Shown here: positions 5,606 through 42,840 of the stretch, piece after piece
How the letters are laid out: the number at the start of each line of letters is the position of its first letter
How positions within the stretch are numbered: position 1 is the stretch's first letter
Program-made: the position numbers and the translations under genes
NCBI RefSeq assembly: GCF_003991155.1
Contig: NZ_CP031293.1
DNA from: Escherichia coli
GTDB taxonomy: Bacteria; Pseudomonadota; Gammaproteobacteria; Enterobacterales; Enterobacteriaceae
Direction: 5' to 3' (one strand)
DNA length: 64,000 nucleotides
Notes under the pieces: model-generated
Told to the model about the DNA's origin: nothing
Database searches by the model: none
What the model saw: the letters and a program-made list of their open reading frames with translations, nothing else

Positions 5606-5683
5606 TGCCGGATGAGGCGAAAACGCCTTATCCGGCCTACGGTTGATACGGTTTTCGTTGGCCGGATTAAGCCACATCCGGCC
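5606..5683. repeat. REP/BIME elements (two REP units)
   Basis: gccggatgaggcgaaaacgccttatccggcctac and ggccggattaagccacatccggcc: canonical REP palindromes. Confidence 0.75.
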
Positions 5684-5688
5684 ATTAA

Positions 5689-6954
5689 TTAAGCTTCAGC
5701 CGCCAGCATCTCTTTCTTACGTTGGCTAATACGCTTAACCAGCATTACGGAAACCACCGCACCACAGAATGCGAAGCAGGCCATAATGCCAAACACGATT
5801 TTGTAGCCAATAATCCCCGGATTTAAATCCAGAATGTAGCCATACAGACTGAAGCAGAACATCGCCGGGGCGTAACCAATAAAGCTACCCAACGCCATCG
5901 CCGCGCCTGTTTTATTTTCAGCAATTTTTGCTTCGCCGATAGGTGCAAAAAATACGGCTCGCTGTGTAAAGACTATCGCGCCAAAGCCCAGCGTACATGC
6001 CATCCCTAAATAGACCGGCATACTTTCGTGCGGCAGCATAATCAACAGTACGAGCGCAGCGGTACTGATGATAAAGGTGTAGCATAGATATTTACTCGGC
6101 GATTTCAGGATCTTATCTGAAATCATGCCACCAATCGGTCCACCAATCATTTTCAGACAGTATTGGTTAATGATGCCGTAAGCCCCCACCAGCGCAACGG
6201 GCAATAGATAGATGTTTTTCAGGAATGGAATGAAGAATGTCAGGCCACAGTAAACCGCGTAAACGAAGAAGACGTTAAAAGCGATAAGCCAGATGGTTTT
6301 GTCTCTCAGCACCGAGGTCATACTGGTGTTTTGCGATGCTCCGTCTTCTTTTTTCACCTCAACGGACGGTGCCTCTTCTTTGTCATTCAGGACAAAGAAA
6401 ATAATAATGCCTACGGCAATCACAATAAGGGAATAGAACCAGATGCCTGCTTTAAAACCCAATAAGCCACTGCCAAACCAGGTAAATACTGCCAACGCAG
6501 AAAATGCCACCACGGTATCGACAATGCCACGCCCTGTTTCGAAGAAGCCAAACAACCGACCTTGTTGTTCGCTATTGCCCAATCGACTTACCGACTTGAG
6601 CAAGACCGGCCAGTTCATCATGTCGCAAGTAACGCCAAATAGCGCCCAGACAAAGAGGATGCCCCAATACCCCGGCATTGTCGTCAAATAAACACCCAGT
6701 AATCCTGTCGCAATGAGTGAGAATGACATGGTGTATCTGCGCGGTAGTTTATCGGCAAAATAAATAGACAGAAAAAAACCCACTGTCGTGACAAATGAGT
6801 TTACCGACATAGCATTACCAATTTGACCATTGGTCAAATGGAAATATTCCTGCATCGGGATATAAAACGCATCTTTCAGCGACGGTAATTTATAAATTGT
6901 ACCGCCACACAATGTTAATAGACTAAATAACGCCCATTTCTTTTTCGTGAGCAT
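5689..6954 (-). CDS. yihN: MFS transporter
   Basis: 421-aa ORF, hydrophobic multi-TM protein; position between ompL and yihM as in K-12. Confidence 0.85.
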   Translation of the reverse strand: MLTKKKWALFSLLTLCGGTIYKLPSLKDAFYIPMQEYFHLTNGQIGNAMSVNSFVTTVGFFLSIYFADKLPRRYTMSFSLIATGLLGVYLTTMPGYWGILFVWALFGVTCDMMNWPVLLKSVSRLGNSEQQGRLFGFFETGRGIVDTVVAFSALAVFTWFGSGLLGFKAGIWFYSLIVIAVGIIIFFVLNDKEEAPSVEVKKEDGASQNTSMTSVLRDKTIWLIAFNVFFVYAVYCGLTFFIPFLKNIYLLPVALVGAYGIINQYCLKMIGGPIGGMISDKILKSPSKYLCYTFIISTAALVLLIMLPHESMPVYLGMACTLGFGAIVFTQRAVFFAPIGEAKIAENKTGAAMALGSFIGYAPAMFCFSLYGYILDLNPGIIGYKIVFGIMACFAFCGAVVSVMLVKRISQRKKEMLAAEA

Positions 6955-7055
6955 AACATCCCCTAAGCGATTTTTAAAATCACTGTTTTAAAGGCAATAA
7001 GATACCGACCATTCATATGGAATGGTTTTATTAACTGCGTATGAGTTAAAACTTA

Positions 7056-8036
7056 TTAGTGGTTCAGAAGATGGTTTGCCTCTTGTTTGATTTGTTGTAG
7101 TACGTTACGCACATGATTTATCTGATTAATTGCATCTTCTTTTTCTTTACGTAACCGCGCATCCAGTAAATGATTTTCTGGCAATGGTGTTTCACTCATC
7201 TGGCGATAAGGGATCCACGGATTATCATCTTCGTCTTCAAAGCGGAACGCCGGCGCATAGTAATCAACCTCTTCTTCCAGGCCATATGCCGTCACCTGCG
7301 GCTCATCATCACCCAGGCATATAAGGTGCGTTAATAACGCTTTGAACGGCATATCACCCTGACCTGAAATACAGGCTTTATGACCCAGGCCACCCGGTTC
7401 TTTAACGATCAAGGCATCTTTGATATGGACCTGGGTAATATGCGGTGCCATCGTTTTTAAAGCGTCGATGGGATGCTCATTTGCATTGATCATGTTCGCA
7501 AAATCAAACAGTAAGGAAAGAGATTCCATCTCACTTTCTTTGACCAGCGACACCAGCTCATGACTTTTTAAATCTTCATGCTGCTCGATCGTAAAAGTCA
7601 GGCCGCTGTCCTGATACGTTTCCCGTACATAGGCAATGTCGTTAGCGATAATCGATAATACATCGCGCAAATTACCTTCATAACGCGGATAAAAACGTAC
7701 GGAGGATGCCCCAGTTTTCAACGCGATGGCGACGGCTTCGTCAATAGATTTTTTATCTGAGGCGCTGGTTTCAATATGAATATCAAGGTTCAGACGGCGG
7801 GCTTTATCCCCAAAGGCAGAGAGTTCTTTATCGTCCATATTACCAAGAGAAAAACGCTCTCCATCCAGAACATGGATTTTGACGCCACGTAGATTATTTT
7901 CACTTGCGATATCAAGTAAATCAGCAGGCAACACTCTTTCCAGTCGCATATTTAAATGAAAGGCATAAGCATGTAAATAAAGAGGAAGAGTGTCGACACG
8001 TTGTAGAATCTTTCTTGCGTTATTTATTGTCACCAT
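7056..8036 (-). CDS. yihM: Sugar-phosphate isomerase/epimerase-like (TIM-barrel) protein
   Basis: 326-aa ORF; conserved synteny with yihL and yihN. Confidence 0.8.
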   Translation of the reverse strand: MVTINNARKILQRVDTLPLYLHAYAFHLNMRLERVLPADLLDIASENNLRGVKIHVLDGERFSLGNMDDKELSAFGDKARRLNLDIHIETSASDKKSIDEAVAIALKTGASSVRFYPRYEGNLRDVLSIIANDIAYVRETYQDSGLTFTIEQHEDLKSHELVSLVKESEMESLSLLFDFANMINANEHPIDALKTMAPHITQVHIKDALIVKEPGGLGHKACISGQGDMPFKALLTHLICLGDDEPQVTAYGLEEEVDYYAPAFRFEDEDDNPWIPYRQMSETPLPENHLLDARLRKEKEDAINQINHVRNVLQQIKQEANHLLNH

Positions 8037-41535: not shown

Positions 41536-41544
41536 GGAGTCACA

Positions 41545-42708
41545 ATGGAACAGGTTGTCATTGTCGATGCAATTCGCACCCCGATGGGCCGTTCGAAGGG
41601 CGGTGCTTTTCGTCACGTGCGTGCAGAAGATCTCTCCGCTCATTTAATGCGTAGCCTGCTGGCGCGTAACCCGGCGCTGGAAGCGGCTGCCCTCGACGAT
41701 ATTTACTGGGGCTGTGTACAGCAGACGCTGGAGCAAGGTTTTAATATCGCCCGTAACGCGGCGCTGTTGGCAGAAGTACCACACTCTGTCCCGGCGGTGA
41801 CCGTCAATCGCTTGTGTGGTTCATCCATGCAAGCATTACATGACGCAGCACGAATGATCATGACCGGCGATGCGCAGGCATGTCTGGTTGGCGGCGTGGA
41901 GCATATGGGCCATGTGCCGATGAGTCACGGCGTCGATTTTCACCCCGGCCTGAGCCGCAATGTCGCCAAAGCGGCGGGCATGATGGGCTTAACGGCAGAA
42001 ATGCTGGCGCGTATGCACGGTATCAGCCGTGAAATGCAGGATGCCTTTGCCGCGCGGTCACACGCCCGCGCCTGGGCTGCCACGCAGTCGGGTGCATTTA
42101 AAAATGAAATTATCCCGACCGGTGGTCACGATGCCGACGGCGTCCTGAAGCAGTTTAATTACGACGAAGTGATTCGCCCGGAAACCACCGTGGAAGCCCT
42201 CGCCACGCTGCGTCCGGCGTTTGATCCAGTAAGCGGTACGGTAACGGCGGGTACATCTTCTGCGCTTTCCGATGGCGCAGCTGCCATGCTGGTGATGAGT
42301 GAAAGCCGCGCCCATGAATTAGGTCTTAAGCCGCGCGCCCGTGTGCGTTCGATGGCGGTCGTTGGTTGTGATCCGTCGATTATGGGTTACGGTCCGGTTC
42401 CGGCCTCGAAGCTGGCGCTGAAAAAAGCGGGGCTTTCTGCCAGTGATATCGGCGTGTTTGAGATGAACGAAGCCTTTGCCGCGCAGATCCTGCCATGTAT
42501 TAAAGATCTGGGACTGATTGAGCAGATTGACGAGAAGATCAACCTCAACGGTGGCGCGATCGCGCTGGGTCATCCGCTGGGTTGTTCCGGTGCGCGTATC
42601 AGCACCACGCTGCTGAATCTGATGGAGCGCAAAGATGCCCAGTTTGGTCTGGCGACGATGTGTATCGGTCTGGGTCAGGGTATTGCGACGGTGTTTGAGC
42701 GGATTTAA
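41545..42708 (+). CDS. fadA: 3-ketoacyl-CoA thiolase
   Basis: 387-aa ORF; thiolase active-site Cys region [11 protein letters not shown]. Confidence 0.96.
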
Positions 42709-42711
42709 CCA

Positions 42712-42840
42712 CTTGCCGGATGCGGCGTGAACGCCTTATCCGGTCTACCGATCCTGCACCCATGTGGGTCTGATAAGAAGCGCCAGCGTCGCATCAGGCA
42801 TCGTGCACCGATTGCCGGATGCGACATAGATCTAAATGCC
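42712..42840. repeat. REP/BIME cluster (about three REP units)
   Basis: gccggatgcggcgtgaacgccttatccggtctac..., ctgataagaagcgccagcgtcgcatcaggc, gccggatgcgac. Confidence 0.75.

What the first reader, a model, noticed from the sequence alone, without database searches (positions are those of the whole stretch)
5606..42840. REP/BIME elements mark several convergent or terminal intergenic regions
Canonical REP palindromes (GCCGGATG...CCTTATCCGGCCTAC type) occur after ompL (5606-5683), after glnG/yshB (16913-17000), after engB (20375-20460), after mobB (29584-29640) and after fadA (42712-42840, about three units). None occurs inside either accessory operon or next to the IS.
Basis: seen in the sequence. 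Interest (0 to 1): 0.2.

Follow-up and report, generated by a model that had tools for sequence, protein, structure and literature searches.

The report
Ordinary E. coli REP/BIME repeats
The five flagged sites are genuine copies of the well-known E. coli REP/BIME palindromic repeats, sitting where they usually sit (between the 3' ends of converging genes), so the finding is correct but ordinary.

Summary
The window is E. coli chromosome, yihQ to the fdrA cluster, inverted relative to K-12 4.07-4.02 Mb. An edit-distance scan with the Y, Z1 and Z2 REP consensi finds seven units at 6 or fewer errors, against none in 30 shuffles. All seven lie in the five named intergenic regions, where three degenerate or truncated units also lie. 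No other hit occurs in the window, including both accessory operons and the IS4 flanks.

- **BIME-1 (Y, L linker, Z1):** 16914-17003 and 20376-20456.
- **BIME-2 (Y, Z2, plus a 13-nt Y stub):** 42714-42825. K-12 has six units here.
- **Single REP followed by a T7 run:** 29590-29626, which is K-12 REP292.
- **Y unit plus a decayed inverted unit:** 5606-5682.

All five sites are convergent junctions: 5 of 8 convergent, 0 of 51 others. The sequences are present at 38 or more places per genome in 5425 of 5426 E. coli genomes. A near-identical genome carries an intact rayT. Architecture is polymorphic between strains at fadA/fre, yshB/hemN and glnA/glnL.

Likely roles are 3'-UTR hairpins, partial terminators and IHF or gyrase sites. 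All of this is already described, so interest is low.

The parts
5606..5640 (-). Y-type REP unit in the 91-bp ompL/yihN convergent spacer. CTAC is at the + strand 3' end, so GTAG reads on the - strand.
   Evidence: 3 errors to the Y consensus; 17-bp hairpin; the region folds with z = -6.2. K-12 has the same unit with 1 error. Strand is given throughout as the strand that reads 5'-GTAG (convention of PMC3333891).
5657..5682 (+). Degenerate, internally deleted inverted REP-like palindrome (GGCCGGAT/ATCCGGCC arms, GTTG instead of GTAG).
   Evidence: 10 errors, chance level by sequence alone; 9-bp hairpin. Conserved in K-12. Assigned to the family only by position and arm sequence.
16914..16948 (-). 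Y unit of a BIME-1 between yshB and hemN. The tetranucleotide is CTGC, one change from CTAC.
   Evidence: 1 error..
16949..16973 (.). L linker of the BIME-1 (AAAAGCAATATTTTCAACAGGTTTT).
   Evidence: aligns with the L linkers of BIME-1 copies at trpS/yhfZ and mgtA/ridA; no match to the IHF core WATCAANNNNTTR at 1 or fewer mismatches; I read the best match as 2 mismatches.
16974..17003 (+). Z1 unit of the BIME-1, with GTAG intact.
   Evidence: 0 errors to the Z1 consensus; hairpin. In K-12 this unit carries a 10-bp deletion.
20376..20401 (-). Y unit with a deleted loop region and no CTAC. First unit of the yihA(engB)/spf BIME-1.
   Evidence: Identical in K-12 except for 1 nt. Lies within K-12 REP293.
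20402..20426 (.). L linker carrying an IHF-core-like site, ATTCAATAGATTA, at 20404-20416.
   Evidence: 12 of 13 match to WATCAANNNNTTR. The background rate for such matches is about 1 per kb; linker conserved with other BIME-1 copies.
20427..20456 (+). Z1 unit with GTTG instead of GTAG.
   Evidence: 4 errors; hairpin. The 3' end of Spot 42 and its terminator lie just beyond it, at 20481-20513 on the - strand.
29590..29626 (+). Single REP with a Z2 core and Y-like arms, GTAG intact. It starts 7 bp after the mobB stop codon. Equals K-12 REP292.
   Evidence: 3 errors to Z2.: -21 kcal/mol hairpin on the mobB-sense strand; identical in K-12. REP292 is listed as overlapping an in-vitro Rho-binding region.
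29627..29633 (+). T7 run one base after the REP hairpin. Together they have the form of an intrinsic terminator for mobAB.
   Evidence: conserved in K-12. Function is inferred. The simple terminator scan did not call it, probably because the stem has an internal loop.
29647..29672 (-). Hairpin that I take to be the rrnA operon terminator, facing the REP from the other side. Context only, not a REP.
42714..42748 (-). Y unit of a BIME-2, CTAC intact. It starts 6 bp after the fadA stop codon.
   Evidence: 1 error.; identical to the first K-12 unit.
42764..42800 (+). Z2 unit of the BIME-2 with GTGG instead of GTAG.
   Evidence: 3 errors..
42813..42825 (-). 13-nt stub of a third (Y) unit. This is the junction where this lineage has about 190 bp less than K-12, equal to four more REP units in K-12.
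   Evidence: alignment; the stub pairs with the 3' arm of the Z2 unit.
42869..42893 (+). Intrinsic terminator of fadBA downstream of the BIME, which places the BIME inside the fadBA 3' UTR. Context only.
   Evidence: 7-bp GC-rich stem followed by a T6 run, on the + strand.

Best explanation
These are REP (repetitive extragenic palindromic) units of the E. coli Y, Z1 and Z2 classes. They are organised as two BIME-1, one short BIME-2, one single REP and one Y unit with a decayed partner.

Origin and placement: they are non-autonomous, hairpin-forming repeats whose spread is attributed to the single-copy REP-associated tyrosine transposase RayT (TnpA-REP). That enzyme recognises the folded single strand through the GTAG foot and the stem mismatch. 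The repeats persist in the gaps between 3' ends of converging genes because insertion there breaks neither a coding sequence nor a promoter.

RNA-level effects: once in place they are transcribed as part of 3' UTRs. Here that means ompL/yihN, yshB/hemN, yihA, mobAB and fadBA. As RNA hairpins they impede 3'-to-5' exonucleases and cause partial, often Rho-assisted, termination. This insulates the two converging transcription units from each other.

DNA-level effects: the BIME-1 linker can bind IHF, and BIME-2 Y units are preferred gyrase sites.

What is shown here: identity, class, architecture, hairpin potential, extragenic convergent placement, multi-copy status, presence of rayT in a near-identical genome, and between-strain polymorphism. 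What is inferred from the literature and not tested for these copies: RNA stabilisation, termination, IHF and gyrase binding, and RayT mobilisation.
For: - Identity: 7 consensus hits at 6 or fewer errors against 0 in shuffles; structural pattern 4 against 0.
- Hairpins: every unit folds as a stem-loop on both strands, with region z-scores from -2.1 to -6.2.
- Composite repeats: the whole Y-L-Z1 unit recurs at unrelated loci (trpS/yhfZ, mgtA/ridA) with a conserved linker.
- Copy number: 38 or more places per genome in 5425 of 5426 genomes, with no annotated feature under any of the 12 listed matches.
- Placement: 5 of 8 convergent junctions carry a REP against 0 of 51 tandem or divergent junctions. 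Gene map; my hand-computed hypergeometric p is about 1e-5. The three REP-free convergent junctions have spacers of 40 bp or less.
- The fadA BIME lies upstream of the fadBA intrinsic terminator, so it should be transcribed.
- K-12 REP292 and REP293 match two sites, and both are listed at or next to in-vitro Rho-binding regions.
- rayT is intact and flanked by BIMEs in strain 2016C-3878.
- Literature: class and BIME definitions, the GTAG and mismatch requirement, and variable tandem number between strains (PMC3333891). REP in 207 of 704 convergent pairs, with a dual terminator and stabiliser role (bioRxiv 10.64898/2026.03.23.713779). Gyrase cleavage enriched in BIME-2, in Y more than Z2 (PMC6379681).
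Against: - No expression, 3'-end or binding data exist for this strain, so the functional part rests on other loci and on K-12.
- The cited preprint stresses that REP effects are context-dependent and that terminal REPs are not generally linked to longer mRNA half-lives.
- Only 4 of about 10 units keep the GTAG/CTAC tetranucleotide needed for RayT binding, so most copies here are probably immobile relics.
- The IHF core is a 12 of 13 match in one linker and only about 11 of 13 in the other.
- rayT is found by megablast in only 3574 of 5426 genomes while REPs are in essentially all. Present-day maintenance therefore does not need RayT.
Confidence: 0.93

Rival explanations
1. They are neutral relics. 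Under this reading they are selfish or decayed RayT-dispersed palindromes that accumulate in convergent spacers only because those spacers tolerate insertions, with no contribution to expression or chromosome structure at these loci.
For: - Six of about ten units lack GTAG/CTAC or are truncated.
- Unit number and even presence differ freely between strains: fadA/fre alleles of about 590, 682 and 781 bp; three alleles at yshB/hemN; REP present or absent at glnA/glnL.
- REPs persist in genomes without rayT.
- The preprint reports large variance and no general half-life effect.
Against: - The sites at ompL/yihN, yihA/spf and mobB/rrfA are almost identical in K-12 and this lineage, including their decayed units. 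This is more conservation than I would expect for free-drifting spacer, although nearby non-REP spacer is similarly conserved.
- K-12 REP292 and REP293 coincide with or adjoin Rho-binding regions.
- REP-containing convergent pairs show higher expression genome-wide.
Confidence: 0.3
2. Their main role is at the DNA level. Under this reading they are protein-binding and topological sites (IHF at BIME-1 linkers, gyrase at BIME-2 Y units, Pol I) that absorb the positive supercoiling generated where transcription units converge, and they are not primarily RNA elements.
For: - All five sites sit where convergent transcription would build positive supercoils. One lies directly downstream of the highly transcribed rrnA operon.
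- The linker at 20404-20416 matches the IHF core at 12 of 13 positions.
- Gyrase cleavage sites are over-represented in BIME-2 independently of transcription (PMC6379681).
Against: - Only one of the five sites is a BIME-2, and it is the shortest allele in the population sample.
- The second BIME-1 linker matches the IHF core poorly.
- The preprint found no REP-dependent chromosome compaction or long-range REP-REP contacts.
Confidence: 0.25
3. They are simply locus-specific transcription terminator hairpins that happen to resemble the REP consensus, not members of a dispersed family.
For: - All lie at 3' ends.
- The mobB unit is followed by a T7 run.
- The ompL/yihN and yshB/hemN spacers contain no other predicted terminator.
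Against: - The same sequences occur at 38 or more places in nearly every E. coli genome.
- They match three family consensi with 0-4 errors.
- They recur as whole composite units at unrelated loci.
- Four of the five sites lack a U-tract.
Confidence: 0.02

Closest known systems
E. coli REP / palindromic units of classes Y, Z1 and Z2 (Bachellier et al.; summarised in Ton-Hoang et al. 2012, PMC3333891)
   Same: 30-37-nt imperfect palindromes matching the three consensi with 0-4 errors. They are extragenic, highly repeated, carry a GTAG/CTAC foot where intact, and occur in alternating orientation within clusters.
   Different: Nothing categorical. Several copies are decayed: two internally deleted units, one 13-nt stub, and four units with a mutated tetranucleotide. 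The mobB copy mixes a Z2 core with Y-like arms.
BIME-1 (also called RIP/RIB elements): Y, L linker with an IHF site, Z1, single copy per locus
   Same: 16914-17003 and 20376-20456 have exactly this order, orientation and single-copy state. The linker aligns with other BIME-1 copies.
   Different: The IHF core is only 12 of 13 (site 3) and about 11 of 13 (site 2). The site 3 Y unit has lost its loop region, and both of its units lack GTAG. In K-12 the yshB/hemN element is an 'atypical' mosaic with an extra Z2, a Y stub and a deleted Z1.
BIME-2: tandem Y/Z2 pairs with short linkers, a gyrase target
   Same: 42714-42825 is a Y-Z2 pair with short linkers. It is the first pair of the K-12 fadA/fre array of six units.
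   Different: Only one pair plus a 13-nt stub is present here. Population alleles in a 60-record sample have roughly one, two or three pairs.
K-12 annotated elements REP292 (mobB/rrfA) and REP293 (yihA/spf)
   Same: The orthologous position and sequence are identical or differ by 3 nt. The published coordinates map onto my coordinates within 2 nt.
   Different: None of note.
REPIN/RAYT systems of Pseudomonas (Bertels and Rainey, PMC3116915)
   Same: Inverted REP doublets associated with a single-copy domesticated tyrosine transposase.
   Different: Different sequence families. The E. coli elements are classified as BIMEs, with class-specific linkers and protein-binding properties.

Membership tests
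E. coli REP (Y/Z1/Z2 palindromic units) | Sequence match to a class consensus beyond chance | tested here: met
   7 units at 0-4 errors, none in 30 shuffles at 6 or fewer errors; structural pattern 4 against 0 in 200 shuffles. Three further units are too degenerate to pass on their own.
E. coli REP (Y/Z1/Z2 palindromic units) | Imperfect palindrome able to form a stem-loop with an internal mismatch | tested here: met
   each unit forms a hairpin on either strand. Internal loops or mismatches are visible in the Y, Z1 and Z2 stems.
E. coli REP (Y/Z1/Z2 palindromic units) | Conserved GTAG (CTAC on the complement) at the foot of the palindrome | tested here: inconclusive
   intact in 4 units (5606-5640, 16974-17003, 29590-29626, 42714-42748). 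One base off in 4 units (CTGC, GTTG twice, GTGG). Lost in the loop-deleted Y unit at 20376-20401 and absent from the 13-nt stub at 42813-42825. At least one intact unit is present at four of the five sites.
E. coli REP (Y/Z1/Z2 palindromic units) | Exclusively extragenic location | tested here: met
   Gene and RNA maps: all units lie between annotated genes. No annotated feature lay under any of the 12 listed family matches in other genomes.
E. coli REP (Y/Z1/Z2 palindromic units) | High copy number dispersed over the genome | tested here: met
   38 or more places per genome (reporting cap is 40 pieces per record) in 5425 of 5426 genomes; medians of 19 and 38 megablast places per genome for queries containing sites 5 and 2.
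E. coli REP (Y/Z1/Z2 palindromic units) | Cognate RAYT (rayT/tnpA-REP) in a BIME-flanked REPtron in the same genome | tested here: met
   intact 498-nt rayT between yafL and an flhA-like pseudogene in strain 2016C-3878; that strain differs from the window by 2 nt in 40,591, and REP units flank rayT on both sides. Caveat: the window's own genome is not in hand.
BIME-1 | Y and Z1 in inverse orientation separated by the conserved long L linker, one copy per locus | tested here: met
   for 16914-17003 and 20376-20456.
BIME-1 | IHF binding to the L linker | not testable with these tools
   Only a motif check was possible; 12 of 13 match at 20404-20416; no match at 1 or fewer mismatches in 16949-16973.
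BIME-2 | Y and Z2 units with short linkers, usually in tandem copies | tested here: met
   a Y-Z2 pair plus a stub, orthologous to the six-unit K-12 array; copy-number alleles in the population.
BIME-2 | Preferential gyrase binding and cleavage | not testable with these tools
   Literature only (PMC6379681).
Rfam RNA families | Match to a curated covariance model at the REP sites | tested here: not met
   no family hit at any REP site at gathering threshold. The scan does recover Spot 42, CsrC, the rRNAs and the tRNAs. This says nothing against REP identity.

The most novel reading that the evidence does not exclude
The between-strain differences in REP/BIME architecture seen here may act as strain-specific 3'-UTR settings that change fadBA, hemN/yshB and glnA/GlnZ output without touching coding or promoter sequence. 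The differences are one against three Y-Z2 pairs after fadA, an intact BIME-1 against a mosaic after yshB, and no REP against a REP inside the glnA 3'-UTR sRNA GlnZ. In addition, the mobB REP with its T7 run may be a REP-built intrinsic terminator that also shields mobB from rrnA read-through.
Probability: 0.25. Interest if true: 0.3.

Novelty: already known. Interest (0 to 1): 0.08.

Why it matters
It matters little beyond correct annotation. REP/BIME elements have been described since the 1980s, and their preference for convergent 3' ends is documented: 207 of 704 convergent pairs in K-12 carry one. Two of these very copies carry K-12 names (REP292 and REP293). The modest added value is a per-unit description covering class, orientation, decay state and GTAG status. 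It also documents that three of the six REP loci in this chromosomal segment are allelic across E. coli. That makes the segment a convenient natural test bed for the current idea that REPs tune 3'-UTR behaviour between strains.

Tried and rejected
- A fixed-spacing IUPAC pattern for the Y unit found nothing. I had fixed the loop length wrongly, so I replaced it with an edit-distance scan.
- A fuzzy-regex scan timed out.
- The current RefSeq K-12 record shows no REP repeat features in this region, so direct comparison with that annotation was not possible. I used a published supplementary table instead. It yielded only REP292 and REP293 because the stored file is truncated.
- A text search for the presumed names REP291, REP294, REP295 and REP296 returned only irrelevant papers. 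The mBio 2015 paper (Qian et al., PMC4550694) has no supplement held. Names for the other three loci are therefore unverified.
- Rfam has no model that hits the REPs.
- The idea that these are ordinary locus-specific terminators was rejected on copy number.
- The idea that IS4 had targeted a REP was rejected. Its target is a non-REP hairpin that looks like the typA terminator.
- Strain 1517k was first used as the coordinate reference. It differs from the window by a 1-bp indel after about position 32,800, so 2016C-3878 was used for the second half.
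Full report
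**What the window is.** The window is E. coli chromosome. Positions 5000-25000 are 100% identical to many sequenced strains. Positions 22510-63100 differ by only 2 nt from strain 2016C-3878. The gene order is yihQPO-ompL, yihNML, IS4, typA, glnALG-yshB, hemN-yihI-csrC, yihA, spf-polA, yihG, yihF-dsbA-srkA-yihD, mobAB, rrnA, hemG-trkH-yigZ-pepQ, fadBA, fre-ubiD, rfaH, tatDCBA-ubiBJE-rmuC. Next comes an accessory IclR/dgoK/dgoA/tctCBA cluster, then udp and ysgA, then an accessory fdrA cluster. This is the reverse orientation of K-12 4.07-4.02 Mb.

**Checking the observation.** Direct reading shows REP-like palindromes at all five stated places. I scanned both strands by semi-global edit distance against the three E. 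coli class consensi. Seven units score 6 or fewer errors, and no shuffle of 30 reaches that threshold.

| Unit | Class | Errors to consensus |
|---|---|---|
| 5606-5640 | Y | 3 |
| 16914-16948 | Y | 1 |
| 16974-17003 | Z1 | 0 |
| 20427-20456 | Z1 | 4 |
| 29590-29626 | Z2 | 3 |
| 42714-42748 | Y | 1 |
| 42764-42800 | Z2 | 3 |

A class-independent arm pattern gives 4 hits, all in these regions, against 0 in 200 shuffles. Three more units are recognisable only by context:

- an internally deleted inverted unit at 5657-5682;
- a Y unit lacking its loop region at 20376-20401;
- a 13-nt Y stub at 42813-42825.

Hits at 9-10 errors elsewhere occur at the shuffle rate (94 observed against about 51 expected, all weak short Z1-like matches inside genes). 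The statement that none occurs in the accessory operons or beside the IS is correct.

**Anatomy.** Sites 2 (yshB/hemN) and 3 (yihA/spf) are BIME-1 elements: a Y unit, a roughly 25-nt L linker and an inverted Z1 unit. A 106-nt query spanning site 2 finds full-length matches at 83-86% identity at unrelated loci such as trpS/yhfZ and mgtA/ridA. The alignment shows that the linker itself is conserved. The composite is thus the repeated unit, as BIME-1 is defined.

Site 5 (fadA/fre) is a BIME-2: a Y unit, a short linker, an inverted Z2 unit, a short linker and then a Y stub. K-12 has six full units at this locus. The window's roughly 190-bp shortfall begins inside the third unit and ends at the array's terminal partial unit.

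Site 4 (mobB/rrfA) is a single unit with a Z2 core and Y-like arms, followed after one base by T7. Site 1 (ompL/yihN) is a Y unit plus a decayed inverted partner that together fill most of a 91-bp spacer.

Every unit folds as a hairpin on either strand. The regions fold better than their shuffles, with z-scores from -2.1 to -6.2. The GTAG/CTAC foot is intact in four units, one base off in four, and absent from the remaining units.

**Context.** All five sites are convergent junctions.

- Of about 59 gene junctions in the window, 8 are convergent, and 5 of these carry a REP. None of the 51 tandem or divergent junctions does. My hand-computed hypergeometric probability is about 1e-5.
- The three REP-free convergent junctions (yihG/yihF, rfaH/tatD, tctA/udp) have spacers of 40 bp or less, or overlap.
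- The fadA BIME lies between the stop codon and the fadBA intrinsic terminator at 42869-42893, so it should be part of the 3' UTR.
- The yihA BIME-1 lies between the yihA stop and the 3' end and terminator of Spot 42 on the other strand.
- The mobB REP faces the hairpin that I take to be the rrnA terminator.
- The ompL/yihN and yshB/hemN spacers contain no other predicted terminator.

**Family tests.** Copy number is the decisive test. The site-2 query hits 38 or more places per genome in 5425 of 5426 complete E. coli genomes, the reporting cap being 40 pieces per record, and no annotated feature lay under any of the 12 listed matches. Queries containing sites 5 and 2 give megablast medians of 19 and 38 places per genome.

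The cognate transposase gene rayT is found by megablast as a single copy in 3574 of 5426 genomes. It is intact, between yafL and an flhA-like pseudogene and flanked by REP units, in the near-identical strain 2016C-3878.

The current RefSeq K-12 record shows no REP features in this region. A published table gives REP292 at 4040865-4040900 (mobB/rrfA, convergent) and REP293 at 4050034-4050112 (yihA/spf, convergent). These map to window 29589-29624 and 20376-20454. My scan of the orthologous K-12 spacers finds REPs at the other three loci as well.

**Variation between strains.**

- Sites 1, 3 and 4 are nearly identical in K-12, including their decayed units.
- At yshB/hemN, K-12 has an extra Y stub and Z2 unit upstream and a 10-bp deletion in Z1. 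In a 40-record spread sample, roughly half share the window's length and the rest are 39-43 bp longer, with one shorter.
- At fadA/fre, a 60-record spread sample shows spans of about 580-592 bp, about 671-683 bp and about 781 bp. These correspond roughly to one, two and three Y-Z2 pairs.
- K-12 also has a REP inside the glnA-glnL spacer that the window lacks. The population sample shows three length classes of 481, 593 and 626 bp. This corresponds to the described GlnZ sRNA classes, in which K-12 carries a REP insertion (bioRxiv 10.1101/2022.04.01.486790).

Such variation in tandem number and location is already reported.

**How it most likely works.** The architecture and placement fit the standard picture. 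RayT recognises folded single-stranded REPs through GTAG and the stem mismatch, and cleaves at inverted units and linkers. This accounts for dispersal and for local expansion or contraction of arrays.

Copies persist in convergent spacers, where they are harmless. Once transcribed, they act as hairpins that block exonucleases and cause partial, Rho-assisted termination. The effects are context-dependent, and REP-bearing convergent pairs show elevated expression. REP292 overlaps, and REP293 adjoins on both sides, Rho-binding regions mapped in vitro.

BIME-1 linkers often carry an IHF site. Here the match is 12 of 13 at 20404-20416 and poor at site 2. BIME-2 Y units are preferred gyrase cleavage sites.

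The REP hairpin plus T7 after mobB has the form of an intrinsic terminator; that is my inference. None of these activities was or could be tested for these copies. Most units lack an intact GTAG and REPs persist in rayT-less genomes, so present-day mobility of these copies is doubtful. A neutral-relic reading remains a serious rival for individual sites.

**Verdict.** The elements are already known, and two carry K-12 names. Interest is low.

Noticed in passing
window 8933-10382: A complete 1426-bp IS4 (8945-10370) is flanked by a 12-bp target duplication, GCCAGCGATGGC. It is inserted into the stem-loop of what looks like the bidirectional typA terminator hairpin (AAAAAAAACCTGCCA...TGGCAGGTTTTTT). 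K-12 has the uninterrupted hairpin with the 4-nt loop in the opposite orientation (TCGC against GCGA). No REP is involved.
   Followed up: partly
window 14015-14187 (glnA-glnL spacer): The K-12 REP that sits inside the 3'-UTR-derived sRNA GlnZ is absent here. The seed-like sequence TTTAGTTGCCGTGGAAACTTT lies directly upstream of the terminator, preceded by a small hairpin (CCCGGCG...CGCCGGG). A 40-genome spread sample shows three length classes of this spacer, with query spans of 481, 593 and 626 bp.
   Followed up: partly
window 29673-29700, compared with K-12 4040636-4040810: K-12 has about 170 bp more between rrfA and the REP. I take the extra DNA to be a second terminator region beginning with a partial 5S-like duplication. 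The window has a single terminator hairpin after 5S.
   Followed up: no
window 19260-19426: The RefSeq annotation of strain 1517k carries a frameshifted 'hypothetical protein' pseudogene here. It lies entirely inside the CsrC sRNA gene (Rfam hit 19199-19452, 278 bits) and is probably an annotation artefact.
   Followed up: no
window 17022-17062: A long hairpin, GATGGCGCTTTCGTTT...AAACGAAGCGCCATT, lies immediately downstream of the hemN stop on the - strand. It has no U-tract, is identical in K-12 and is separate from the BIME-1.
   Followed up: no
window 53011-58450 and 60577-64000: Two gene clusters are absent from the K-12 map of this region. One is an IclR regulator with 2-dehydro-3-deoxygalactonokinase, an aldolase and a tripartite tricarboxylate transporter (tctCBA), between rmuC and udp. 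The other is a cysteine hydrolase/DUF2877/fdrA/DUF1116 cluster after ysgA. Neither contains a REP. The tctA/udp convergent spacer is only 34 bp.
   Followed up: no
window 49898-50149, 12314-12421, 32808-32916: Rfam gathering-level hits to Erse sRNA (overlapping the ubiB/ubiJ junction), ES222 sRNA (typA-glnA divergent spacer) and StyR-44 (upstream of 23S in the rrnA spacer).
   Followed up: no
L010 13488-14252 (strain 2016C-3878, 668487-669251): The REPtron of the near-identical strain has an intact rayT flanked on the left by an inverted Y unit plus a Z2 unit, and on the right by a degenerate Z1-like unit plus an inverted Y unit. By megablast, rayT is found in only 3574 of 5426 complete E. coli genomes, whereas REPs are in 5425.
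   Followed up: partly
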